This document shows positions 1 through 29,656 of a DNA stretch of 29,656 nucleotides, piece by piece (the stretch's first letter is position 1; the number at the start of each line of letters is the position of its first letter). The notes under the pieces were generated by a model. It worked only from the letters and a program-made list of their open reading frames with translations, was not told where the DNA came from and did no database searches. Origin of the DNA: a virus (Duplodnaviria; Heunggongvirae; Uroviricota; Caudoviricetes); the IMG/VR virus record IMGVR_UViG_2718218453_000002; one strand, written 5' to 3'. Made by a program: the position numbers and the translations under genes.

Positions 1-1170
1 TTATATTTTGCTTTCCTCTGAGCTGTACTCTATATCAGATAGCTTAACCTCAAGCTCTAACCCCGTCGTGAAGCCACTATTATTCAGAATGTGAGTTACT
101 TTACTGATTAACCATACCTGTTCGTCTATTACGCGCTTAAAGCCCGACACACGTACAGGCGTCTCAGGAAATAAATCCGCTCGCCCTAGCGCCAGTGTGA
201 TTGAAAACTCCGCAACGCCTCGCTGCAGTTTATCCCACTTAGCCTGAGCGGCACGCATCGCCTGCGCCTTTGATGCGTAGACCGTTGTCAGCGCCAGCAC
301 GTTATCGGCTTCACCGGCCATATACTCACCCTCGCGAGCCTCCTGCTCTTTTTTGGCCTTTGTCTTTTTGCTAACAGGCTTTGCTTTCGGGTGCTCCAGT
401 GCGCGTAGGTGTTTCTCTTTTGGCTGGCGTTTCAGCGTCACTTTTTGCTTTTGCGGCTTCGGGTCTTTGGTGTGCAACCATTTTGCCGTTACGCCGGTAT
501 AAGCCCCACGGTCGGCAATAGCAAATTGATGACGGTCACCATTGCTACGGGTCAGCGTCATTTGCGGGATGGGTCTGCCGCTGGCCGTCATCGCACTACC
601 GGCTTTCAGAAACAGCAATTTCCCCGCTTTCACTGACACCGCAGCTCCGTTTCGGTCAGCTAGCCGGGTCAGAAACACCGCGTCGGACTCCTGCGACTGG
701 TCGATATGCGGTACCGGGATTTTTTTCAGTGAATCAGCGACACTGGCCGTCAGTTTATTGCGTTTTGCGATGGTGCTGACCAGTTCTCCGATGGTGGTGT
801 CATGCCATGACTCTTCACGCCTGGAATTTAGCGTGCCGCGAAAGTCCGCGCTGCGCGCCCGGATGGTCAGGGTGTCAGGCGCTCCCCGGTGCTCAATCTC
901 ATCGACCGTAAAATCCCCCTTATTCAGCAACGCCGAGCCCTGCCAGCCAAGCCACAGCGTCAGCACTGCCCCGCGCAGGGGTAACTCAACTTTCCCGTCG
1001 GTATCATCAAGCTCAATATCGAGCTGGTCAGCCTCAAAACCCCGGTTATCGGTCATGGTGAGAGAAATTAATCGGTCACTAAAATTGCTGGTAATGTCCT
1101 GGCTGTTCAGCGTCAACATAAATGCCGGTGCAAGGCTGGCACCGGCGTCAATTGCCATCCCCGTTATCAT
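1..1170 (-). CDS. D: Tail protein D (late control gene D family)
   Basis: 389-aa ORF whose N-terminus (MITGMAIDAGASLAPAFMLTLNSQDITSNFSDRLISLTMTDNRGFEADQL) matches what I recall of P2 gpD; size (P2 D about 387 aa) and synteny after U fit. ATG overlaps the U stop (ATGA). Confidence 0.9.
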   Translation of the reverse strand: MITGMAIDAGASLAPAFMLTLNSQDITSNFSDRLISLTMTDNRGFEADQLDIELDDTDGKVELPLRGAVLTLWLGWQGSALLNKGDFTVDEIEHRGAPDTLTIRARSADFRGTLNSRREESWHDTTIGELVSTIAKRNKLTASVADSLKKIPVPHIDQSQESDAVFLTRLADRNGAAVSVKAGKLLFLKAGSAMTASGRPIPQMTLTRSNGDRHQFAIADRGAYTGVTAKWLHTKDPKPQKQKVTLKRQPKEKHLRALEHPKAKPVSKKTKAKKEQEAREGEYMAGEADNVLALTTVYASKAQAMRAAQAKWDKLQRGVAEFSITLALGRADLFPETPVRVSGFKRVIDEQVWLISKVTHILNNSGFTTGLELEVKLSDIEYSSEESKI

Positions 1171-1652
1171 GCAGTGAAACCTCCGGGCATACCCTGCAGT
1201 TTATCTGTCAAATTACCGGCAGAGCCGAGAAGCTCACTGGCCTGTTTATTCAGGTCACCAAACATCTCTGTCAGCGATTCATCAACCCGTTTTAGCGAAA
1301 GCGTGAAATCAATCTTTCTGGCCGCACCATCACTGAAAAACTCGGTGCGTGTAGTCGATACTTTATCGACGATATACATCCCGAGGATATTTCCGGTTCC
1401 CTCTATCAACGGCCACGCTCTGCCTTCATTGGCCATCACCTCTACAGCCTTAAGTGAGATCCAACCGCCAGTGATAGCGGGGTATAGCGTACCAGCAAGC
1501 TGTATAGAGGTTTCCCCCTCGCCAAGAAACTGATAGGCAGGTGGTTTACCCACCCGGTCATTGGACACCCAGCGATAATCTTTCGAATGCTGCATCGACT
1601 GGTAAGGCAGGGTGCGAAGTTCAAACACAAACATTCCGAGAGCAAGCATCAT
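1167..1652 (-). CDS. U: Tail protein U
   Basis: 161-aa ORF resembling P2 gpU (RTLPYQ, YRWVSNDRVGK, LKRVDESL motifs); sits between T and D. Confidence 0.9.
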   Translation of the reverse strand: MMLALGMFVFELRTLPYQSMQHSKDYRWVSNDRVGKPPAYQFLGEGETSIQLAGTLYPAITGGWISLKAVEVMANEGRAWPLIEGTGNILGMYIVDKVSTTRTEFFSDGAARKIDFTLSLKRVDESLTEMFGDLNKQASELLGSAGNLTDKLQGMPGGFTA

Positions 1653-1665
1653 CGTTTAATCCCCC

Positions 1666-4110
1666 TCAATAGTCGTGGGTCATGTTGGCACGCTGGCGGG
1701 CGCGTTTATCGCGCTCAATCTGTTCGAGCGTGTCGCGTAGTTGTCTGTCAAGCTGATGCCCCGGCGCAACACCTCCCGGCAGATTGATGTTGTATTCGCT
1801 TTTGCTCTGGTCAATGTAAGAGCGCCCCGCCGGTGCGGTAACTGGCTGATAAGCCTGATAGCCGCCATATGTGCTGGTTGCCGGGATGTAGGAATTACCC
1901 TGTGTGGCGGCATTGGTTTTGGCGGCGGTCTGGTCGAGGCTGTCCGACTCTTTGTTGATGATGCCGAGCTTTTCGAGAAGCCAGTCGACACCGCTGCGCA
2001 GCTTGTTAAAAACATTGAGCGGAGCCATCAAGGCAGAGGCCAGTGCCTGACCAAATATGACGCCGACATTTTTGCAGCTATCAAGCGTTTCCTGCGTGGC
2101 CTTAACCGGTGCTATCAGGTCTTTAAACCACTGCCAGACGCCGCGCAGTTTCTCGCCGAGACCATCAAAAATGGGAGCCAGTGGAGCTAACATTTCCCCG
2201 ACTGGGGCAAAGGCACTCATGATGCCTTCAATCACTCCCGAGAAAAATGCGCTGATGGGCTCCCAATATTTACGGATGAGTAGCGCCCCCGCCACAATCG
2301 CCGCACCGACGGCCACTATCGGCCAGGTAATCGCACCGAGCGCTGTCGCAATGGCACTACCGACGACAGTAAAGACCGTACCCAGCACGCCAGCAGCGGC
2401 GATAATTGCATTAATCCCCATGACAACCGGCCACGCAACGAGACCAATGCCGCCGATGATACCAATCAGCGCCAGCGCACCACCGGCGATGATGCCGATA
2501 GTTTCCGCTAACTCCTTGTTGTCTTTGATCCAGTCATCAAGCTTTAGCACATACCGTGTTGCTGTCTGAGTTAGCTGACGCAATAAGCTATCTTGCTGGT
2601 CATAGAGGTCAGTGCCGACCGCCTCATATGCTGACTGGAACTCCTTGAAGTCGCCGCCGAGGTTATCCTGCATAACCTTGACCAGCTCCTCTGTTTTACC
2701 GTCTGAATCCTTTATCGTGGCAGTTAGCTTATCGAGTTTTCCGCTTGCCGCTGCCGCCATAAGGACACTTGCAGACTTCATAGCCTCCTCGCCGAATATC
2801 GTTTTCACGTACTCGGCCTTTTGTGAGGTACCAAGATTGTTGCGCTTAAAACTGGCCTGCATTTCTTTCAGGATGGTAAATAGCGGGCGCGTATTGCCTT
2901 TGCTGTCTGAGGTTTTAACTCCCAGCTCTTTGAGAGCATCGTATGCTTTGCCTGTGGGTGCCTGTAGTCTCGTTATAACAGCAGCGCCGCCAGTCCCAGC
3001 CATTGACCCCCTGATGTTATTATCATGAAGTGTGCCGGTAATCGCCGCCGCCTGTTCAAGACTCACCCCAGCATTTTTCGCAACAGGGGCAAGGTAACTT
3101 AATGAGTCACTTAGTCCCTGAAAATCAGCGGTGGTTTTGTTCATCGTGGTTGAAAGAACATCACCGATATGCGCAGCCGCGTCATTAGAAAGCTGAAAGG
3201 CGGCTTTTGTCCCCATCAACAGTTGCGCGTTTTCCTCCATTGTTTTTTTGTTTGCAAGCGACAGGTTGAGAGTTACAGGTGTCATGGCCGCTATAGCCGC
3301 CGCATCACCACCACCTTTTGCAATGATAATCTGCGCACTGGCTGCATCATCAGCAGAAGCGGCTGTATTGTCACCGAGCTGGCGCGCCTGTTTGCGTAAC
3401 GCCTGCATTTCTGGCGACTGCTTATCGACCCCGAGCACAGCCTGCAGCTCGGAGTTTTTTTGCGCAAAGTCATAACCGGGCATCAGCAATTTAACCCCGG
3501 CCATCGTTCCCGCCGTCGCAATACCGACCCCGGCAGCACCTGCAGCGGCCATGTTACCGGCAAGCTCCTTACCCGATTTATATCGCTCTTTCACTCGGTT
3601 TAGGTGCGCCTGCTGTGCGCTGACCTTCGCCAATGCTTCACGCTGCCGGTTGAGCTGCGCCGTCGTCTCGCTGATGCGTGTTTTAAGCCCCCGCTCATCG
3701 TTTGCCAGATTGCGGGTATTGATACCGGCAGCACCCAGCTCGCGTTGCTGGCGTTTAACCGACTCGGTGAGGCTGTTGTATTTAACCTGCAGCCCCTCGG
3801 CGGCACGTTTTGCGGATTCGAGCACCTGTGCCTGCGCTCGCGTCGGGCGCTCAGTATTTTTGAATTGCGTGGCAAGCGCTTCAGCCTCGCGCTTTGCCTT
3901 CTCCAGCGACTGGCCGGTTACGGCCAGTTGCGCGCTGGTTTTGCGAAAGCCGTCGATTTTCGCGGCCTGCCCGTTCAGGTCACGCAGCCCTTTTTGTGTG
4001 TCGCGAATATCGCCCGACAGGGTTTTACTCGCGGTCTGGATGGATTTAAGCGGTCGGGTCGCCTGGTCGACCGCTTTCAGCAAAACCTCAAGTCTCAGGT
4101 TATTACTCAT
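1666..4110 (-). CDS. T: Tail tape measure protein
   Basis: 814-aa ORF with a coiled-coil-rich N-terminal half, Gly/Ala-rich hydrophobic central segments and a C-terminal domain; P2 gpT-sized, immediately downstream of E/E'. Confidence 0.9.
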   Translation of the reverse strand: MSNNLRLEVLLKAVDQATRPLKSIQTASKTLSGDIRDTQKGLRDLNGQAAKIDGFRKTSAQLAVTGQSLEKAKREAEALATQFKNTERPTRAQAQVLESAKRAAEGLQVKYNSLTESVKRQQRELGAAGINTRNLANDERGLKTRISETTAQLNRQREALAKVSAQQAHLNRVKERYKSGKELAGNMAAAGAAGVGIATAGTMAGVKLLMPGYDFAQKNSELQAVLGVDKQSPEMQALRKQARQLGDNTAASADDAASAQIIIAKGGGDAAAIAAMTPVTLNLSLANKKTMEENAQLLMGTKAAFQLSNDAAAHIGDVLSTTMNKTTADFQGLSDSLSYLAPVAKNAGVSLEQAAAITGTLHDNNIRGSMAGTGGAAVITRLQAPTGKAYDALKELGVKTSDSKGNTRPLFTILKEMQASFKRNNLGTSQKAEYVKTIFGEEAMKSASVLMAAAASGKLDKLTATIKDSDGKTEELVKVMQDNLGGDFKEFQSAYEAVGTDLYDQQDSLLRQLTQTATRYVLKLDDWIKDNKELAETIGIIAGGALALIGIIGGIGLVAWPVVMGINAIIAAAGVLGTVFTVVGSAIATALGAITWPIVAVGAAIVAGALLIRKYWEPISAFFSGVIEGIMSAFAPVGEMLAPLAPIFDGLGEKLRGVWQWFKDLIAPVKATQETLDSCKNVGVIFGQALASALMAPLNVFNKLRSGVDWLLEKLGIINKESDSLDQTAAKTNAATQGNSYIPATSTYGGYQAYQPVTAPAGRSYIDQSKSEYNINLPGGVAPGHQLDRQLRDTLEQIERDKRARQRANMTHDY

Positions 4111-4590
4111 TGTGGTGTCCGCTACGCTGCAGCGCCTTTTCGCGCCATGTGATGAGCTCGGTCAGGCTCAGGGAATAGAGCTCTGATAGCGGCCAGTGGA
4201 ATATCACCGCGATATCCGCCATCAGGTCATCGGTCGACAGGTCGGGCGGGAAATCTACTCCGCCGAAGCCGGTGACAAAAAACCAATCACCTTAGCGGCC
4301 AGCGACAGCATATCGGGCAGGTTCATTGCGGTAAGCTCCTGCGCCGTAAGCGCGGGGTAAGTCATGCGTGGCAATACCTTAATCAGCGCATCGACTTCGG
4401 ACTGCGCCACCGCTGCCAGACTGACACCGCGCAGGGTACCGGCGTTCGGCTCAATCAGTGTGACTTTATCAATCGTCTGACCGGCGCGCTTAATCGGCTT
4501 GTCGAGGGGCACGACGTTCGGGTTTACGGTGTCAATTTCATTGCCAGCCATATCAACAAATTCAGCGGTTTTACGTGGTGCTTTTGCCAT
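4103..4590 (-). CDS. E': Tail assembly chaperone E+E' (-1 programmed frameshift fusion)
   Basis: Minus-strand heptamer TTTTTTG at 4276-4282 in X_XXY_YYZ phasing; after a -1 shift the frame stays open for about 53 codons (..LITWREKALQRSGHHNE) and stops at 4103-4105, overlapping the T start codon as in P2. Confidence 0.6.
4255..4590 (-). CDS. E: Tail assembly chaperone E (zero-frame product)
   Basis: 111-aa ORF between FII and T; contains the slippery heptamer T_TTT_TTG in the zero frame near its 3' end. Confidence 0.8.
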   Translation of the reverse strand: MAKAPRKTAEFVDMAGNEIDTVNPNVVPLDKPIKRAGQTIDKVTLIEPNAGTLRGVSLAAVAQSEVDALIKVLPRMTYPALTAQELTAMNLPDMLSLAAKVIGFLSPASAE

Positions 4591-4653
4591 GATGTTTTTC
4601 TCTGCTCTGAATGGGGATTAATAACCGGCCAGCAGTGCTGACCGGTCAGGGAA

Positions 4654-5172
4654 TTACAGCCCGATTGCGCGGCGGTGCTGTTCCAGACGGTCGACGCCGT
4701 TCACCTTCTCAACCATGTTGACGGTGTCGATTTCGATGACGTCGCTACCATCAATCGTGAGGCGGTAATAGGTGCATACGGTCGACAGTTTGGTCGAGGT
4801 GTTTTCACCCTGCTTATTCTCGCCGCCGTCGATTTCTTTATGACGGCCACGCATGACCACCTCGACCGCCACGATTTCGCCAGTGTCGTCACGTTGGTAA
4901 GAGCCAGCAAAACGCAACGGCACAGCGTCAGCACCCGGTGCGGCGTACTGCGCCCACAGCGCCACATCAGGCAGGCCACCGACAGACCATTCGACGGTGA
5001 GCGCATCATCGTCGAGACCAAGGTCAATCGCCGCCGCGCCATTCATGCCGCCGCCGCGATAGTTTTCGAGCTTGCGGGTCAGCTTCGGCAGCGTCACGGA
5101 TTCCACAACGCCCATGTAGCTAAGGCCGTCATTGAACATGTTCAGATATTTAAGTTTGCGGGGTAGTGCCAT
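4654..5172 (-). CDS. FII: Tail tube protein
   Basis: 172-aa ORF, same size as P2 gpFII, directly downstream of the sheath gene. Confidence 0.9.
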   Translation of the reverse strand: MALPRKLKYLNMFNDGLSYMGVVESVTLPKLTRKLENYRGGGMNGAAAIDLGLDDDALTVEWSVGGLPDVALWAQYAAPGADAVPLRFAGSYQRDDTGEIVAVEVVMRGRHKEIDGGENKQGENTSTKLSTVCTYYRLTIDGSDVIEIDTVNMVEKVNGVDRLEQHRRAIGL

Positions 5173-5187
5173 GTTGTTTCAGGCTCC

Positions 5188-6366
5188 TTAGCTGTTGACC
5201 GATTCGGCCAGATTCACCAGATATTTATCGGTGATACGCTGGCGCAGGGTTAGGCTTTCCAGTGGTGGAACCGGTGTATAGTCGTAGTCGATATACAGTT
5301 TCCCGGCCTTGAGGGTTTCCTTATCGTTCGATTCCTCGTCGAACCAGCATTCACCGTCCACGATGTAGCCGTTTGATTTCAGCTCGCGGAATTTGGCGTT
5401 AATGCCGTCGACAATGTCACGGATAAGTGATGCGGTGATGGGCTTATCGACCGTCCACATGTGCGCCTCGGCCATCGTGTCGGCCAGCACCTGCGCGGTG
5501 CGGGTGTAGTTCTCAAACAGGAAAAGCGGGTCATCAGAGCAGGTGCGGTTACCCCAAAAGCGGAAGCCATCCTTACGCACCAGTGTCGTGACCCCGGCCT
5601 CGTTGAGCAGATCAGCATCGGTGCCGGATGCCTGCAAATCCCAAAACACTGACGCACTGATGCCGGTAACACCCTGCACGCCGACGTTAGACAGGGTTTT
5701 GTGCCAGCCGACGGTCTGGTCGATATAGGCACGCAGGCCGAGTGCGCGCGCAGTTGCGTATGCCGGTGCGGTGGCGTTTGTGGTGGTATCCCATGCAAGG
5801 AAATCAGGCCAGATGACCATCAGCTCGCGCTGGCTGAAATTCTCGCGATAGGCCATCGCCTCGGAAATGGTTTTACAACCCCATGCGCTGATATAGCCAA
5901 AGGCGCGCAGGCTGATACAGACCGAAGCAAGTGCGACTGCGACCTCTTTGGTATCGAGACCCGGCACGCCGAGAATGCGCGGCTTGACGCCGGTGACCGC
6001 TTCGGCAGTCAACAGCGCTTTAATGCCGGTGTATTTACCGTTCTCATCCGTTCCGCCGATGATATTGGAAATTGTCTGCGCTTCGGCGTCGTCGCCGGTA
6101 CCTTCGTCCACGCGCACGACAACTGTGACAGGTTTTGACTGGTCGGCGATGGCCTGCAGGGACGCGGCCAGCGTGCCTTTTTTACCGGCTTTCGCAATGG
6201 CGCTTTGCACATTGGTAATCAGTACCGGCTCGTTGAGGGGAAAGGTTGCCGCATCCGCATCGCTGGCTGTACAGACCATGCCGACGATTGCGGTTGCAAC
6301 AGTGGAAATGACGCGGGTGCCGTCGTTAATCTCAAGCACCTGCACGCCGTGGTGAAAATCACTCAT
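5188..6366 (-). CDS. FI: Contractile tail sheath protein
   Basis: Strong match to recalled P2 gpFI N-terminus (MSDFHHGVQVLEINDGTRVISTVATAIVGMVCTASDADA). Start placed at the internal ATG at 6366 (GGAG Shine-Dalgarno upstream) rather than the track start at 6393. Confidence 0.9.
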   Translation of the reverse strand: MSDFHHGVQVLEINDGTRVISTVATAIVGMVCTASDADAATFPLNEPVLITNVQSAIAKAGKKGTLAASLQAIADQSKPVTVVVRVDEGTGDDAEAQTISNIIGGTDENGKYTGIKALLTAEAVTGVKPRILGVPGLDTKEVAVALASVCISLRAFGYISAWGCKTISEAMAYRENFSQRELMVIWPDFLAWDTTTNATAPAYATARALGLRAYIDQTVGWHKTLSNVGVQGVTGISASVFWDLQASGTDADLLNEAGVTTLVRKDGFRFWGNRTCSDDPLFLFENYTRTAQVLADTMAEAHMWTVDKPITASLIRDIVDGINAKFRELKSNGYIVDGECWFDEESNDKETLKAGKLYIDYDYTPVPPLESLTLRQRITDKYLVNLAESVNS

Positions 6367-26341: not shown

Positions 26342-26851
26342 TCAAATCAGACCAAACGATGCGCCAATACCGCTCATGGTATCGACCACGCTCGACATAG
26401 CTGGATTAGTCTGCAGACGTGCATGCAGCGCCAGAGCCGACAATGACAACATGCGAATGCCGGAGTTAACGCTTTCAATCATGTTGTGCTTACGGGCAAT
26501 GGTCAGACGTTCATCAGATACCGCGCCGCTCGCCAGTTCGCCGAGTTCACGCATTGCGCGCATGACATAAGACTGCAATTTGTCTTTAGCCAACTCATTA
26601 ACCGGCACGCATGGTAGGCAGTGAATCTGCGCTAAAAAACCATCAATGAGGGTTGAGTCTTCGGTCAGGTCAGTCAGCAGCCACAATTCAGGCGGCGTGA
26701 ACTGGTGAGGCTGTTCCGGGTTGAGCTTGTTACGTAACGTTTGAACGTTCATACCTGCACGCTCGGCCAGCTTCGCCATGTTGTGACGCTGTGCGAAAAT
26801 GCGGCATGCTTCGTCATAGTGGGGATGTTTGGAAACCTGAAAATCAAACAT
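26342..26851 (-). CDS. cII: CII-like regulatory protein (phage 186 CII family)
   Basis: From the internal ATG at 26851 (MFDFQVSKHPHYDEA.., GAGGGA Shine-Dalgarno) the protein is 169 aa, the length of 186 CII, and matches what I recall of its sequence; the track start at 26881 is TTG. Confidence 0.75.
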   Translation of the reverse strand: MFDFQVSKHPHYDEACRIFAQRHNMAKLAERAGMNVQTLRNKLNPEQPHQFTPPELWLLTDLTEDSTLIDGFLAQIHCLPCVPVNELAKDKLQSYVMRAMRELGELASGAVSDERLTIARKHNMIESVNSGIRMLSLSALALHARLQTNPAMSSVVDTMSGIGASFGLI

Positions 26852-26883
26852 GGTTAAATTCCCTCTAACTTGCATAATCAAAT

Positions 26884-27255
26884 TCAGTTAAGAGCGGTGC
26901 GCTGGTCGATGTAGCGACAATCAATCGCTTGTTGAGTCAGCTTATCGCGCCATGCTTTTACGTTTACGAGGGTTCGGCTTCGTTTAGCAGCTTCCTCTTT
27001 GTTGGAAAAGTCTTTGGTCGGAGCTTTGAGAAGGACTCCCTCATCGAGCCATTGCCAGACCAGACGCTCGCTAACACCGCGAGTAGCGGCGAAGTCTTTC
27101 ACAGTCATCGTGTCTGACATAGCGGAGCGAATCATTGTCTGTAGAGCTGGCAGCATGGCGGTAACGATGGCATCAAACTGTGTTGGATCTAGCAGCACAG
27201 TTTGATTTTGTGAGTTTTGCGAATCATTCGTCGAGATTGATTTTGCATCTGACAT
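26884..27255 (-). CDS. Apl/Cox-like excisionase and transcriptional regulator (HTH), with N-terminal extension
   Basis: First gene of the leftward early operon, in the position of 186 apl / P2 cox; HTH-like segment TVKDFAATRGVSERLVWQWLDEGVL; ATG at 27255 with AGGAG upstream. At 123 aa it is longer than 186 Apl (87 aa). Confidence 0.55.
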   Translation of the reverse strand: MSDAKSISTNDSQNSQNQTVLLDPTQFDAIVTAMLPALQTMIRSAMSDTMTVKDFAATRGVSERLVWQWLDEGVLLKAPTKDFSNKEEAAKRSRTLVNVKAWRDKLTQQAIDCRYIDQRTALN

Positions 27256-27376
27256 ATCGCATTATCTCCTGTTGTTTGAAATGTAGTGCAGTGGTGTGCA
27301 TCTTGGTCGATGAATGCCACTATAGATCGTAAAAAGTTTTCTGTAAACACCCATAAAATTATCTGTAGGGGGTTTT
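27256..27376. promoter_or_regulatory. Lysis-lysogeny switch region (promoters and operators not resolved)
   Basis: 121-bp region between the divergent apl-like and cI genes; in 186 and P2 the lytic and lysogenic promoters face each other here. Candidate TATAGA and TTGAAA elements and short repeats (TCTGTA twice) are visible but not assignable. Confidence 0.4.
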
Positions 27377-28237
27377 ATGAGTTCTGAGCTTGATGTTCAG
27401 TGGCGTGTTAGTGCAACGAACGGCGTATTGGAACGCTTAATGTCAGCCTATGGGGTCAAGATGCAAAAGGATTTGGCTGACCTGCTAGGTATCGCTAAAC
27501 ACAGCGTTAGCGGCTGGGTTCAGCGTGATGCAATACCTGGCAATGTCATAGTTAGGTGTTGTCTTGACACGGGAGCTGATATCAATTGGCTTGTAAATGG
27601 AGAGCTTGCAAATGCAAATCACGAGCGAGCCAGTTGCAAGTTAAAAGGTAAAGAGCTTTATGACGAGATTATGACGAATGGTGGTAAAACCGTTTTGCGT
27701 AGGATTCTTGATGCGTATGGCTTTACCATGCAAAAGGAGCTCGGTGATTTGCTCGGCATTTCCTCTGGCACAATTAGCACATGGGTAAGGCGAGATTTTT
27801 TCCCTGGTGATGTTGTTGTTACATGCGCTCTTGATACCGATACGTCACTGGAATGGTTAGCAACAGGCAAGGGGCAAATGCGAGCTAACAGGGAAGATGT
27901 CACATCTGGTTTTTCTATTAAAAAATCTCGTCTTGAATCTGGTGAGCTTAAGGATGCAGGAACGTGGCATCCTGACCCCTCAATGATTCCTTCTAACTCA
28001 GGGGAATTGATTTTTGTTGACGGTGTAGCTGCCTCTTGGCTTGTCGACTGTTCTGCTTCGAATATAAGTAATGGTCGCTGGTTAATTGATATCGACGGCG
28101 CTCTTGATGTTTTTGATGTAATTCGTTTACCTGGTGGAAAAGTCAGGTTGTCAAATAAGTCTGCTGAGTTTGAATGCAACATTACCGACATTACGCCTGC
28201 CGGGGTTGTAGTTTTCACATTGGAAAAACACGTATAA
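27377..28237 (+). CDS. cI: CI-type immunity repressor with tandemly duplicated N-terminal DNA-binding domain
   Basis: 286-aa ORF upstream of int and divergent from apl/cII. Residues about 14-75 and 98-160 are clearly homologous and each resembles the 186 CI N-terminal HTH domain; the C-terminal about 110 aa resemble a CI oligomerisation domain. AGGGGG Shine-Dalgarno. Confidence 0.75.
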   Translation: MSSELDVQWRVSATNGVLERLMSAYGVKMQKDLADLLGIAKHSVSGWVQRDAIPGNVIVRCCLDTGADINWLVNGELANANHERASCKLKGKELYDEIMTNGGKTVLRRILDAYGFTMQKELGDLLGISSGTISTWVRRDFFPGDVVVTCALDTDTSLEWLATGKGQMRANREDVTSGFSIKKSRLESGELKDAGTWHPDPSMIPSNSGELIFVDGVAASWLVDCSASNISNGRWLIDIDGALDVFDVIRLPGGKVRLSNKSAEFECNITDITPAGVVVFTLEKHV

Positions 28238-28245
28238 GGGAAATT

Positions 28246-28584
28246 ATGAAACGTAAACTCTTTTTAGCTATGCTTCTTACCTTTTCTTTTGGCTCCTTAG
28301 CCGCTGAAAAAACACAGGATTTAGATGGCGCTAAGTTTGGTGAGGATTGGCCGTTAACTTTTGAAAAAGCTACGGTGTCTTGCGTTAACGGTAAGTATGC
28401 CTTTGTATACGACAAAGCAACTGATGACCGATACCCATTAAATGGTTTTGCTATTGATGGAGTAAAGTCTGGAAAGCTTGAGGGGAGCAATATTGATGCT
28501 GTTTGGAAAGACAGTCCAGAGTATGCAGGTGTAAAAATTCCTTTGGATCCTGTAATGGATGCCGCAACAGCACTTTGCGAATAA
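28246..28584 (+). CDS. Secreted/periplasmic protein of unknown function (moron between cI and int)
   Basis: 112-aa ORF from ATG at 28246 (AAGGGAAA Shine-Dalgarno) with signal peptide MKRKLFLAMLLTFSFGSLA-AEK and two cysteines in the mature part; no equivalent gene lies between C/cI and int in P2. Confidence 0.6.
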   Translation: MKRKLFLAMLLTFSFGSLAAEKTQDLDGAKFGEDWPLTFEKATVSCVNGKYAFVYDKATDDRYPLNGFAIDGVKSGKLEGSNIDAVWKDSPEYAGVKIPLDPVMDAATALCE

Positions 28585-28606
28585 TTAGAGTTGCCTCGGT
28601 GACATT

Positions 28607-29656
28607 ATGACTGTAAGTAAGCAAAAAAATGGCAAATGGTTATGTGAGCTCTATCCAAATGGTCGAGAAGGGCGGCGTATACGTCGGCAATTCAATACCA
28701 AAGGTGAGGCCGAGGCATTCGAAGCATTTACCAAAAGCGAGAGTGAAGATAAGCCGTGGCTTGGCAAGAAAGAAGACCGCCGACGCTTAAGCGAGATTAT
28801 TCAGCTTTGGCACAATTTGCACGGTCAAGCGTTAGTCGCCAGTAAGTCGAGGTTAGCAAAGCTTCAAATCGTATGTAATGGGCTTGGTGACCCGATTGCA
28901 TCTCGCCTTACCGCGAAAGACTGGGCTCATTATCGTGACCGTCGATTACGTGGTGAAATAGACAATGGTTATCATAAAGCCCCCTCGAAATGGATCGCCA
29001 AACCTATAACCGTCAATCGCGAACAACAATACCTAGAAGCAGTGTTTAATGAGCTCCGCCGGTTAGGGGAGTGGAGCCTACCCAATCCACTTGATGGGAT
29101 CCGAGTATTCAAAGAGGCTGAGAAAGAAATGTCCTGGCTAACTTTGTCTCAGCTCCCGGAGCTGTTTCGAGCCTGCGAGCAATACGGCAAAGAAGACCTC
29201 ACCATGATTGTTAAGGTGTGCCTTGCAACCGGCGCTCGATGGGGGGAAGCGGAGAGATTGACCCGCCCTCAACTTTCTCCATATAAACTGACGTTCACCA
29301 AAACCAAAGGTAAGAAGAATCGCACAGTTCCTATTCCTAAATGGCTGTACGACGAGTTGTCCGTACGTCAAGGCAGAATGTTTAAACCCTGCTATCAGGA
29401 GTTTAAGAAGATGCTCAAACTAACGAATATTGAATTGACGGAAGGGCAGAAGACGCACGTTTTGCGTCATACTTTTGGTGCGCATTTTATGATGAACGGC
29501 GGGAATATACTGGTACTGCAGAAAATTCTCGGGCATGCCAATATTCGAGAAACAATGAAGTATGCACACTTTGCTCCTGACCACCTTGAACAAGCTGTAA
29601 CCCTTAATCCGTTATCGCTGTATGTTGGCGACAATATGGCGGCAGAGGTTGCATAA
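28607..29656 (+). CDS. int: Tyrosine integrase (P2/186 Int family)
   Basis: 349-aa ORF with catalytic signature residues in the expected order (R in GARWGEAERL, HxxR in HVLRHTF, Y in ETMKYAH); its stop is the last codon of the window. Confidence 0.9.
   Translation: MTVSKQKNGKWLCELYPNGREGRRIRRQFNTKGEAEAFEAFTKSESEDKPWLGKKEDRRRLSEIIQLWHNLHGQALVASKSRLAKLQIVCNGLGDPIASRLTAKDWAHYRDRRLRGEIDNGYHKAPSKWIAKPITVNREQQYLEAVFNELRRLGEWSLPNPLDGIRVFKEAEKEMSWLTLSQLPELFRACEQYGKEDLTMIVKVCLATGARWGEAERLTRPQLSPYKLTFTKTKGKKNRTVPIPKWLYDELSVRQGRMFKPCYQEFKKMLKLTNIELTEGQKTHVLRHTFGAHFMMNGGNILVLQKILGHANIRETMKYAHFAPDHLEQAVTLNPLSLYVGDNMAAEVA

What the first reader, a model, noticed from the sequence alone, without database searches (positions are those of the whole stretch)
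28246..28584. Secreted-protein moron inserted between the repressor and integrase genes
A 112-aa protein with a classical signal peptide and two cysteines lies between cI and int, expressed in the lysogen orientation (same strand, 8 nt after the cI stop, own RBS). Genes at this position are expressed from the prophage and are typical lysogenic-conversion or exclusion candidates; P2 has no gene here.
Basis: partly seen in the sequence, partly recalled or inferred. Interest (0 to 1): 0.45.

Follow-up and report, generated by a model that had tools for sequence, protein, structure and literature searches.

The report
Phage-borne periplasmic YebY-like gene
The small secreted-protein gene between the repressor and integrase genes of this 186-like prophage is real and is a relative of the bacterial periplasmic protein YebY; it is already catalogued, is a regular passenger of the repressor operon in this phage lineage, and its role in the lysogen is untested.

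Summary
ORF 28246-28584 encodes 112 aa with a cleavable-type signal peptide and two cysteines. It starts 8 nt after the cI stop, behind a Shine-Dalgarno that overlaps that stop.

It is not an orphan. It is a DUF2511/YebY-family protein: Pfam PF10709 at 63.7 bits, and an AlphaFold model (pLDDT 90) that fits E. coli YebY (7n0j) at 1.2 A. The cysteines align with the YebY disulfide. It is 97% identical to gp28 of Salmonella phage PSP3 and 100% identical to a gene of phage vB_EcoM-613R3.

All 67 related loci from the IMG/VR and genome scans show cI - DUF2511 - int. Even relatives at 30-37% identity sit just downstream of a P2/186-type repressor. Phage 186 has no gene there. The gene has no promoter or terminator of its own, so it is operon cargo rather than an autonomous moron.

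Divergent alleles (48% identity) sit between nearly identical cI (95%) and int (99%) genes. Each allele is under purifying selection (dN/dS about 0.09).

Function is inferred only. I favour a periplasmic protective or exclusion factor of the lysogen (about 0.4). The main rival is a YebY-like brake on copper import (about 0.25). Interest is moderate.

The parts
27319..27347 (-). pR-like sigma-70 promoter (TTTACA-17-TATAGT) for the leftward early lytic operon (apl-like, cII, fil ...). It marks the switch region upstream of cI.
   Evidence: 10/12 match. The position corresponds to pR of phage 186 in the annotated record. Consensus match only.
27237..27265 (+). Candidate pL-like promoter (TTGATT-17-CATTAT), convergent with pR and lying inside the 5' end of the apl-like gene. 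It would drive cI, the DUF2511 gene and int.
   Evidence: Loose hexamer scan, 8/12. The arrangement mimics the face-to-face pR/pL pair annotated in 186. Weak, not validated.
27377..28237 (+). Immunity repressor cI, 286 aa, with two tandem Phage_CI_repr HTH domains and a CI_C domain. It is the first gene of the lysogenic operon.
   Evidence: Pfam PF07022 (2 stretches, E=1e-52) and PF16452. 98% identical to PSP3 cI.
28235..28245 (+). cI stop (TAA 28235-28237) overlapping the Shine-Dalgarno AAGGGA (28236-28241), with 8 nt between stop and ATG. This is a junction suited to translational coupling, and it is also the left boundary of the exchanged allele cassette.
   Evidence: The junction is conserved in 9 relatives and across swapped alleles.
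28246..28302 (+). Signal peptide (residues 1-19, MKRKLFLAMLLTFSFGSLA), with predicted signal peptidase I cleavage after A19.
   Evidence: Hydropathy and the -3/-1 rule. The region is variable but keeps its pattern, and is followed by invariant A20-E21. dN/dS is 0.31, against 0.09 for the mature part. No lipobox.
28303..28584 (+). Mature YebY-fold (DUF2511) domain: 93 aa, about 10.1 kDa, pI 4.4, no His. C46 (28381-28383) and C111 (28576-28578) are predicted to form a disulfide. Stop TAA at 28582-28584.
   Evidence: PF10709 at 63.7 bits. YebY 7n0j by sequence, E=4e-7. AF2 model pLDDT 90, TM 0.90-0.92 and rmsd 1.2-1.5 A to 7n0j.
28585..28606 (+). Spacer of 22 nt before int containing the conserved GCCTCGGTG motif. 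It is the right boundary of the exchanged allele cassette.
28607..29656 (+). Tyrosine integrase (349 aa), last gene of the operon. The window ends at its stop codon.
   Evidence: Pfam PF24624 and PF00589. In relatives it lies next to the host yfiB/dgcN genes.

Best explanation
Shown or strongly supported: the ORF encodes a Sec-exported, disulfide-stabilised periplasmic protein of about 10 kDa with the YebY/DUF2511 fold. It is the middle gene of the prophage's lysogenic operon (cI - yebY-like - int). It has no promoter or terminator of its own, and its ribosome-binding site overlaps the cI stop. It should therefore be made whenever the repressor is made, that is, continuously in the lysogen. 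It is a fixed, selected component of PSP3-type 186-like prophages.

Inferred mechanism: in the lysogen's periplasm the protein binds a target through its conserved face (W35, Y63-P-L-N-G67, K74-S-G-K77). This protects the lysogen at the envelope level. The most likely form is superinfection exclusion, meaning interference with DNA entry by incoming phages. A related possibility is protection against other agents that act in the periplasm. Either would complement the cytoplasmic immunity given by cI. The variable N-terminal (residues 20-34) and C-terminal (81-110) surfaces, which differ between allele cassettes, would set specificity.

Rough probabilities: family identity and periplasmic location about 0.95; co-expression with cI about 0.85; protective or exclusion role about 0.4.
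For: Identity: Pfam PF10709 at 63.7 bits against a cut-off of 21. YebY 7n0j by sequence at E=4e-7, with both cysteines aligned. A high-confidence model fits 7n0j at rmsd 1.2 A and MlbQ at 1.9 A, and nothing else in the PDB is significant.

Export: signal-peptide features and invariant A20-E21. YebY is periplasmic with a C48-C113 disulfide (PMC8689200).

Operon membership: 8-nt gap with the SD overlapping the cI stop, and no promoter or terminator between cI, the ORF and int. In 186 the pL transcript covers cI and int (annotation).

Selection: dN/dS is 0.08-0.27 against relatives and 0.09 within allele groups.

Conserved linkage to the repressor: 67/67 loci have cI directly upstream and int downstream. 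The best hits in a library of 1.84 billion proteins, at 57% and at 30-37% identity, lie directly behind repressor genes in P2/186-like prophages. These repressors include single-HTH cI and a small XRE-type HTH protein. One further hit (P0025, 31%) is also in a P2-like phage contig, but the contig ends just upstream of the gene, so its upstream neighbour is unknown.

Allele exchange: cI 95% and int 99% identical with the DUF2511 protein at 48%. DNA identity falls from above 90% to 43-65% exactly over the ORF. There are seven allele groups below 80% identity.

Not a copy of the host gene: the cluster representative closest to E. coli YebY (P0131, 55% identical to it) scores only E=1e-5 against the window protein and sits far down the hit list. 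Chromosomal yebY appears in viral contigs only as a flanking gene at the contig end.

Precedent (my knowledge plus PMC7067206): genes co-transcribed with prophage repressors are typically exclusion or defence cargo, such as lambda rexAB and BTP1 bstA. Lactococcal sie2009 and S. thermophilus ltp lie between repressor and integrase. P1 Sim is a processed periplasmic exclusion protein. The only other studied family member, MlbQ, is a self-immunity protein (PMC8689200).
Against: There is no experimental data on any phage-borne member. No similarity was found to any known exclusion or defence protein: PADLOC none, PHROG 2950 'unknown function', BFVD no significant structural match.

Most characterised exclusion proteins are membrane-anchored or lipoproteins, whereas this one is predicted to be soluble. 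There is no sign of positive selection (dN/dS about 0.1 even in the variable C-terminal third). The allele diversity therefore looks like old lineages reshuffled by recombination rather than an arms race, and general mosaicism of immunity regions could explain it.

The only functional data for a Gram-negative homologue point to copper import, not phage exclusion (PMC11923076). Expression in the lysogen is inferred from gene arrangement and was not measured.
Confidence: 0.4

Rival explanations
1. Copper-import modulator. The phage protein works like chromosomal YebY. It acts in the periplasm on the host CopD/CopC pair (YebZ/YobA) and damps copper uptake into the cytoplasm. Because it is expressed from the cI promoter, it would be free of the host's own copper/FnrS regulation. 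This would be lysogenic conversion of metal homeostasis, and through MarR of antibiotic tolerance.
For: Same family and fold as YebY, with the disulfide conserved. YebY lowers YebZ-dependent copper accumulation, and the AZY operon links copper to mar induction (PMC11923076). yebY disruption changes streptomycin tolerance (bioRxiv 10.64898/2026.08.18.745456). The known hosts named for the phage isolates (E. coli, Salmonella, Klebsiella) are among the taxa reported to carry AZY-like operons with DUF2511 (PMC11923076).
Against: Identity to E. coli YebY is only 32%, and the phage clade is not nested among AZY-type YebYs; its nearest relatives are all phage-borne. About half of the family lies outside copC/copD contexts (PMC8689200). 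The mature protein has no His, one Met and only the two disulfide cysteines, so it has no obvious copper ligands. YebY itself binds copper only weakly, and only after reduction (PMC8689200). Exchange of alleles at 48% identity between identical flanks is hard to square with docking onto one conserved host transporter. [quoted passage not shown]
Confidence: 0.25
2. MlbQ-like immunity protein. It binds and neutralises a peptide antibiotic, bacteriocin or other small envelope-active molecule in the periplasm. This would protect the lysogen against competitors rather than against phages.
For: The fold matches MlbQ (2mvo, rmsd 1.9 A). MlbQ is proposed to confer self-resistance by binding the lantibiotic NAI-107 (PMC8689200). 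Multiple allele types could match different ligands.
Against: MlbQ is a lipoprotein of an actinomycete encoded with ABC transporters, and identity is about 22-25%. No bacteriocin or transporter genes are linked to the phage gene. Lantibiotics rarely reach the Gram-negative periplasm (my knowledge).
Confidence: 0.1
3. Passenger or cis-acting spacer. The coding function is irrelevant, and the segment persists because it separates int from cI (lowering int translation in lysogens) or through hitch-hiking with the immunity module.
For: In 186 the cI stop and int start overlap, so inserting any ORF would uncouple them. The divergence of the gene partly tracks cI (r=0.52). One allele (P0001 cluster, L048/L049) has C111W, which removes the disulfide.
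Against: Strong purifying selection on the protein: dN/dS is 0.06 in the core and 0.09 over the mature protein. There are 40 invariant residues across 62-100% homologues. Signal-peptide properties are preserved despite sequence turnover. The same protein family is retained through allele replacement and down to 30% identity. A spacer would not need to stay a DUF2511 protein.
Confidence: 0.05

Closest known systems
E. coli YebY (PDB 7n0j; DUF2511/PF10709; third gene of the yobA-yebZ-yebY 'AZY' copper operon)
   Same: Same Pfam family. Same size (112 against 113 aa). Sec-type signal peptide. Two cysteines at equivalent positions (C46/C111 against C48/C113). Same fold (TM 0.90-0.92, rmsd 1.2-1.5 A). 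Shared motifs: G-x-x-W, Y-P-L-N, S-G-K, D-P, L-C at the C-terminus.
   Different: Only 32% identical. Encoded in a prophage lysogeny operon between cI and int instead of next to copD/copC. Low GC (41%). Belongs to a separate phage-borne clade. Exists as exchangeable divergent alleles. No evidence of any copper link.
PSP3 gp28 (orf28, NP_958085) and its orthologues in phages SEN1, Midge, RCIP0057, SI22, SW9 and vB_EcoM-613R3
   Same: This is the same gene: 97-100% (PSP3, SEN1, 613R3) or 72-88% identical, same length, same cI - gene - int position, same junction sequences.
   Different: Nothing substantive. None of these has a tested function; the annotations read 'DUF2511 domain-containing protein', 'putative periplasmic protein' or 'hypothetical'.
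MlbQ (PDB 2mvo/6qfp), lantibiotic NAI-107 self-resistance lipoprotein of Microbispora
   Same: Same family and fold, with the disulfide in the same place (PMC8689200). It is an extracytoplasmic protective ('immunity') protein.
   Different: A lipoprotein with a long linker, from a Gram-positive host, encoded with ABC transporters. Identity about 22-25%.
Prophage exclusion genes of the lysogeny module: lactococcal sie2009 and S. thermophilus TP-J34 ltp (between repressor and integrase), lambda rexAB and BTP1 bstA (downstream of cI), P1 sim (processed periplasmic protein)
   Same: Position in the repressor transcript, or between repressor and integrase. Expression expected in the lysogen. Envelope location for Sie2009, Ltp and Sim. 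Presence/absence polymorphism among related phages.
   Different: No sequence or structural similarity was detected to anything in the defence-system (PADLOC) or viral-structure (BFVD) libraries; these named proteins were not compared individually. Most of them are membrane-anchored. The analogy is positional and rests on my own knowledge and PMC7067206, not on a test.

Membership tests
DUF2511 / YebY family (Pfam PF10709) | Significant match to the family HMM above the gathering threshold | tested here: met
   63.7 bits against a cut-off of 21, E=2.1e-17, covering profile positions 5-87 of 87.
DUF2511 / YebY family (Pfam PF10709) | Two conserved cysteines that form the stabilising disulfide (YebY C48-C113) | tested here: met
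   C46 and C111 align with YebY C48 and C113. C46 is invariant and C111 is conserved in at least 90% of 97 family members. Disulfide formation itself was not tested.
DUF2511 / YebY family (Pfam PF10709) | Extracytoplasmic location through an N-terminal signal peptide | tested here: met
   The sequence has a canonical n/h/c-region and an S-x-A cleavage motif, with no lipobox. This is a prediction only; no SignalP run or experiment.
DUF2511 / YebY family (Pfam PF10709) | YebY/MlbQ fold (antiparallel sheet packed by helices) | tested here: met
   AF2 model with pLDDT 90. Foldseek against 7n0j gives TM 0.90-0.92 and rmsd 1.2-1.5 A; against 2mvo, rmsd 1.9 A. No other PDB hit below E=1.
AZY-operon YebY orthologue (copper-uptake accessory protein) | Encoded adjacent to copD (yebZ) and copC (yobA) | tested here: not met
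   It is flanked by cI and int in the window and in 67/67 related loci. A CopD query found no match in those loci.
AZY-operon YebY orthologue (copper-uptake accessory protein) | Orthology (closest relatives are AZY YebYs) | tested here: not met
   The closest relatives are phage-borne. The representative closest to E. coli YebY (P0131) scores E about 1e-5, and identity to YebY is 32%.
AZY-operon YebY orthologue (copper-uptake accessory protein) | Modulates YebZ-dependent copper import or binds copper | not testable with these tools
   Needs ICP-MS or reporter assays. The mature sequence lacks His and has a single Met.
Moron (autonomous accessory transcription unit in a phage genome) | Present in some phages and absent at the same site in close relatives | tested here: met
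   Absent from 186, where cI and int abut. Present in only 10 of 50,697 phage records, out of 201 records that match the region.
Moron (autonomous accessory transcription unit in a phage genome) | Nucleotide composition different from the surrounding genome | tested here: met
   GC 41% and GC3 31%, against 52.6% for the window. The neighbouring cI is also low (44.8%).
Moron (autonomous accessory transcription unit in a phage genome) | Own promoter and terminator | tested here: not met
   No promoter-like or terminator-like site between cI, the ORF and int. The only loose hexamer pair ends inside the start codon. The SD overlaps the cI stop.
Superinfection-exclusion / prophage defence proteins | Homology to a described exclusion or defence family | tested here: not met
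   PADLOC: no hit at E up to 1. PHROG 2950 is 'unknown function'. BFVD has no significant structural match.
Superinfection-exclusion / prophage defence proteins | Expressed in the lysogen and located in the envelope | tested here: inconclusive
   The operon arrangement and the signal peptide predict both. No expression data exist for this prophage. The cI and int genes of the related prophage BTP5 are transcribed in all conditions tested (PMC7067206).
Superinfection-exclusion / prophage defence proteins | Reduces infection by incoming phage | not testable with these tools
   Requires plating, adsorption and DNA-entry assays.

The most novel reading that the evidence does not exclude
The phage-borne DUF2511 proteins are a previously unrecognised family of soluble periplasmic exclusion or immunity determinants. 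They are hard-wired to the repressor gene of P2/186-like prophages, and interchangeable allele cassettes set which incoming phages or envelope-acting agents are blocked. If so, the chromosomal YebY/MlbQ family as a whole might be better understood as periplasmic 'shield' binding proteins than as copper proteins.
Probability: 0.3. Interest if true: 0.65.

Novelty: new member of a known kind. Interest (0 to 1): 0.4.

Why it matters
The finding places a secreted protein of a structurally solved but functionally unclear family (YebY/DUF2511) inside the repressor operon of a common group of E. coli, Salmonella and Klebsiella prophages. At least 43 of 5426 complete E. coli genomes carry this allele group, and one Salmonella allele is indexed in about 1900 blocks of the assembly collection.

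If the gene excludes other phages, it would bear on phage-therapy host range and on how P2-like prophages compete. If it damps copper import, it would be a prophage-encoded modifier of metal homeostasis and mar-dependent antibiotic tolerance.

Either way, the tight repressor linkage and the cassette-like allele exchange give a simple, testable genetic system: delete the gene, swap alleles, and plate phages or measure copper.

Tried and rejected
(1) Orphan or novel secreted protein: rejected because of the clear Pfam, PDB and structural membership.

(2) Recent capture of the host yebY: rejected. Identity is 32%, GC is 41%, the nearest relatives are all phage-borne, and the representative closest to E. 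coli YebY sits far down the hit list. In addition, aberrant excision would place captured DNA outside int, not between cI and int (inference from the 186 map).

(3) Chromosomal yebY carried by phages: 303 IMG/VR contigs contain it, but in all 80 loci kept it sits at or within about 60 nt of the contig end, and in the one locus examined the next ORF is an opposite-strand integrase-sized gene. This is a prophage-boundary artefact.

(4) Autonomous moron: no promoter or terminator found.

(5) Arms-race positive selection: dN/dS is about 0.1 in all regions within allele groups.

(6) Function by domain fusion: long proteins containing DUF2511 gave no informative partner domains, and two apparent multi-stretch hits were low-complexity or cadherin-repeat artefacts.

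(7) Known defence or exclusion families: PADLOC, NCBIfam and BFVD were all negative.

(8) A broad alignment (A2) was too divergent for the genome-contig scan. The scan with the close clade found only 2 species-representative genomes. A viral-contig scan with the distant P0021 found nothing.

(9) The first AF2 model, built from 16 close sequences, was mediocre (pLDDT 71). It was superseded by the 97-sequence model.

(10) A literature search for PSP3 gp28 or for a function of the gene between cI and int found none. A proteomics paper lists a 'DUF2511 domain-containing protein' (QGA31985) as differentially abundant in an ESBL E. coli, but I could not establish whether that is the phage or the chromosomal paralogue.

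Full report
**1. Observation**

The window runs from tail gene D to the stop codon of a tyrosine integrase. It is a 186-like (Peduoviridae, Eganvirus-type) prophage. Region 26300-29656 is 99.7% identical to Escherichia phage vB_EcoM-613R3 and 86-90% identical to Salmonella phages PSP3 and SEN1.

ORF 28246-28584 (+) encodes 112 aa. The upstream gene (27377-28237) is a CI-type repressor with two tandem Phage_CI_repr HTH domains and the CI C-terminal domain. The downstream gene (28607-29656) is the integrase.

The cI stop (TAA, 28235-28237) is followed by 8 nt and then the ATG. The Shine-Dalgarno AAGGGA overlaps the stop.

The N-terminus has a textbook Sec signal: MKRK, then a hydrophobic core, then G-S-L-A / AEK. 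In 16 homologues these 19 residues vary freely in sequence but not in character, while A20 and E21 are invariant. There are two cysteines, C46 and C111. Signal-peptide cleavage remains a prediction.

**2. What it is**

The protein is a member of Pfam PF10709 (DUF2511, now named YebY) at 63.7 bits against a gathering score of 21. By sequence alone it finds E. coli YebY, PDB 7n0j, at E=4e-7, with both cysteines aligned to the YebY disulfide pair C48-C113.

An AlphaFold2 model built on a 97-sequence alignment reaches pLDDT 90, with values above 95 for residues 21-112. It superposes on 7n0j with TM 0.90-0.92 and rmsd 1.2-1.5 A over 91-93 residues. [quoted passage not shown] Nothing else in the PDB is significant.

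PHROGs places the protein in phrog_2950, 'unknown function'. NCBIfam and PADLOC have no model for it. The viral structure library BFVD has no significant match.

The gene is already in GenBank. It is gp28/orf28 of PSP3 (97% identical), and the 613R3 gene is 100% identical. The DNA is at least 99% identical in 21 complete E. coli genomes. RefSeq annotates it as 'DUF2511 domain-containing protein', and phage Midge calls it 'putative periplasmic protein'.

**3. Context and evolution**

Phage 186 has no gene here: its cI stop abuts the int start. In the INPHARED collection only 10 of 50,697 records contain any DUF2511 gene. These are 7 phages, all Eganvirus-like, and all have the gene between cI and int. 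The result is the same whether the query is the window protein, a distant relative or E. coli YebY.

Scans of IMG/VR and of GTDB genomes with the close clade returned 67 loci. In 67 of 67, a tandem-HTH cI ends 8-11 nt upstream and an integrase follows. The exceptions to strict adjacency carry a second cargo gene in the same interval:
- a 134-aa protein with its own signal peptide, between cI and the DUF2511 gene;
- a 166-aa bPH/SHOCT protein, between the DUF2511 gene and int.

An exhaustive HMMER search of 1.84 billion representative proteins found one close representative (57% identity). Similarity then drops sharply to 37% identity or less.

I looked up the genomic context of the best of these distant hits:
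- P0020 (37%), P0024 (32%): directly downstream of a tandem-HTH cI in a P2/186-like prophage.
- P0021 (35%), P0029 (31%): directly downstream of a single-HTH 186-type cI.
- P0023 (30%): directly downstream of a small XRE-type HTH protein in a P2-like phage.
- P0025 (31%): in a P2-like phage contig, but the contig ends 192 nt upstream of the gene, so its upstream neighbour is unknown.

By contrast, the cluster representative closest to E. coli YebY (P0131, 55% identical to it) scores only E about 1e-5 against the window protein. Chromosomal yebY turns up in viral contigs only at or next to the contig end; in the one locus examined the next ORF is an opposite-strand integrase-sized gene, so this is a prophage-boundary artefact.

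The phage gene is therefore not a recent copy of the host gene. It belongs to an old, phage-borne branch of the family whose constant feature is linkage to the lysogeny repressor.

**4. Operon membership and selection**

No sigma-70-like promoter or intrinsic terminator lies between cI, the ORF and int. The SD/stop overlap is conserved in all relatives. In 186 the pL transcript covers cI and int (annotation). I therefore infer constitutive co-expression with the repressor in lysogens. This was not measured.

The gene is under purifying selection. dN/dS is 0.08-0.27 against individual relatives. Within allele groups it is 0.09 for the mature protein, 0.06 for the core (residues 35-80) and 0.31 for the signal peptide. 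Its GC content is 41% (GC3 31%) against 52.6% for the window, and cI is also low at 44.8%.

**5. Cassette-like allele exchange (new here)**

Mean pairwise protein identity among 62 complete loci is 74% for cI, 67% for the DUF2511 protein and 91.5% for int. In 68 pairs, cI is at least 85% and int at least 90% identical while the DUF2511 protein is below 60%.

The extreme case is L047 against L089: cI 95%, int 99%, DUF2511 48%. DNA identity falls from above 90% to 43-65% exactly between the cI stop/SD and the conserved GCCTCGGTG motif before int.

The 47 unique alleles fall into seven groups below 80% identity. Variation is concentrated in the signal peptide, residues 20-34 and residues 81-110. 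The core is nearly invariant: WPLTF, SCVN, FVYD, TDDRYPLNG, VKSGKxEG.

Synonymous sites between groups are saturated and there is no positive selection within groups. The pattern is one of old allelic lineages reshuffled by recombination, not a fast arms race.

**6. Mechanism**

Shown or strongly supported: a small exported YebY-fold protein, co-transcribed with the repressor and kept by selection.

What it does is inferred. I favour a protective or exclusion role in the lysogen's periplasm (about 0.4) for four reasons:
- the invariant linkage to the immunity gene across very different repressors;
- the periplasmic location;
- the exchangeable allele types;
- the precedents of repressor-linked exclusion genes and of MlbQ as an immunity protein.

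The main rival (about 0.25) is that it behaves like YebY, which lowers YebZ (CopD)-dependent copper uptake and belongs to an operon linking copper to mar-mediated antibiotic resistance (PMC11923076). yebY disruption also alters streptomycin tolerance.

Several points count against the copper rival. Identity is low and the protein belongs to a separate clade. The mature protein has no obvious copper ligands: no His and one Met. Divergent alleles are freely exchanged. About half of the family lies outside copCD contexts (PMC8689200).

Several points count against the favoured reading as well. There is no similarity to any known exclusion or defence protein. The protein is predicted to be soluble rather than membrane-anchored. 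There is no positive selection and there are no experimental data.

Two minor rivals remain. An MlbQ-like binder of antimicrobial peptides is possible (0.1). A mere spacer or passenger is unlikely (0.05) and is contradicted by the strong constraint on the protein.

**7. Comparison and novelty**

Membership of the DUF2511/YebY family is met on all testable criteria: HMM, cysteines, signal peptide and fold. Membership of the AZY-operon orthologue group is not met, on context and on phylogeny.

The 'moron' label is met for presence/absence polymorphism and for composition. It is not met for transcriptional autonomy.

No exclusion or defence family membership can be claimed.

The gene and even its context are already on record, so this is a member of a known family, not a new kind of element. 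What this analysis adds is:
- the depth and constancy of the repressor linkage across P2/186-like phages;
- the cassette-like allele replacement;
- the recognition that the cI-int interval is a small cargo slot.

Interest is moderate (0.4). The function is open, and a simple deletion and plating experiment or a copper-uptake assay would decide between the two leading models.

Noticed in passing
window 27377-28237: The immunity repressor has two tandem Phage_CI_repr HTH domains plus one CI_C domain (286 aa). 186 cI has a single HTH (192 aa). Earlier literature described PSP3 CI as having 'a longer C-terminal domain' (PMC3448106); the extra length is in fact a duplicated N-terminal DNA-binding domain.
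   Followed up: partly
L011/L012/L013 4570-4974; L031, L058: Some Escherichia prophages carry an additional 134-aa ORF with its own signal peptide (MKRSIFALVLLTSFAVHAQP...) between cI and the DUF2511 gene. The same TAAGGGAAyTTATG junction is repeated in front of both genes. No Pfam or PADLOC hit.
   Followed up: partly
L010 5168-5668; L071-L074; L019-L022 5475-5975: A 166-aa bPH_3/GRAM/SHOCT-domain protein lies between the DUF2511 gene and int in another sub-lineage. The cI-int interval therefore acts as a small cargo slot.
   Followed up: partly
L019/L020 (GCA_032164335.1, CP134152.1) 1-6000: A degraded prophage remnant (truncated integrase, cII fragment, tandem-HTH cI, DUF2511 at 37% identity, SHOCT gene) lies immediately downstream of the chromosomal copC-copD-yebY operon. 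That genome therefore has a host and a phage-type DUF2511 gene within about 4 kb of each other, only 32% identical.
   Followed up: partly
L097-L176 (IMG/VR): E. coli chromosomal yebY is present in 303 IMG/VR 'viral' contigs, and in all 80 loci kept it lies at or within about 60 nt of the contig end. In the one locus examined the next ORF is an opposite-strand integrase-sized gene. yebY seems to flank a prophage integration hotspot and gets swept into prophage predictions.
   Followed up: partly
L048, L049 and protein cluster P0001: One allele (about 94% identical to the window protein) has C111W. This removes the C-terminal disulfide cysteine, whose mutation abolished YebY expression (PMC8689200). 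It may be a decaying copy.
   Followed up: no
window 19426-21005 (-): Two adjacent ORFs (249 and 275 aa) lie in the accessory region between the portal/terminase genes and the replication gene, which by my recollection of the P2 map corresponds to its old/tin accessory region. They have no Pfam family. The 249-aa protein has a weak PADLOC ZorB/MotB match (E=3e-4). They may be an unclassified defence pair.
   Followed up: partly
window 26884-27255 (-): The first gene of the lytic operon, in the Apl/Cox position, is a 123-aa protein with no Pfam family. It has only a weak PHROG match to Cox-like excisionases (E=8e-5), and the literature describes the PSP3 protein as a singleton (PMC3448106).
   Followed up: no
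window 27377-29656 versus relatives: Recombination breakpoints separate the immunity module from int. The Salmonella locus L004 has int 99% identical to the window but cI 72% and DUF2511 65%. PSP3 has cI 98% and DUF2511 97% but int 91% with saturated dS.
   Followed up: yes
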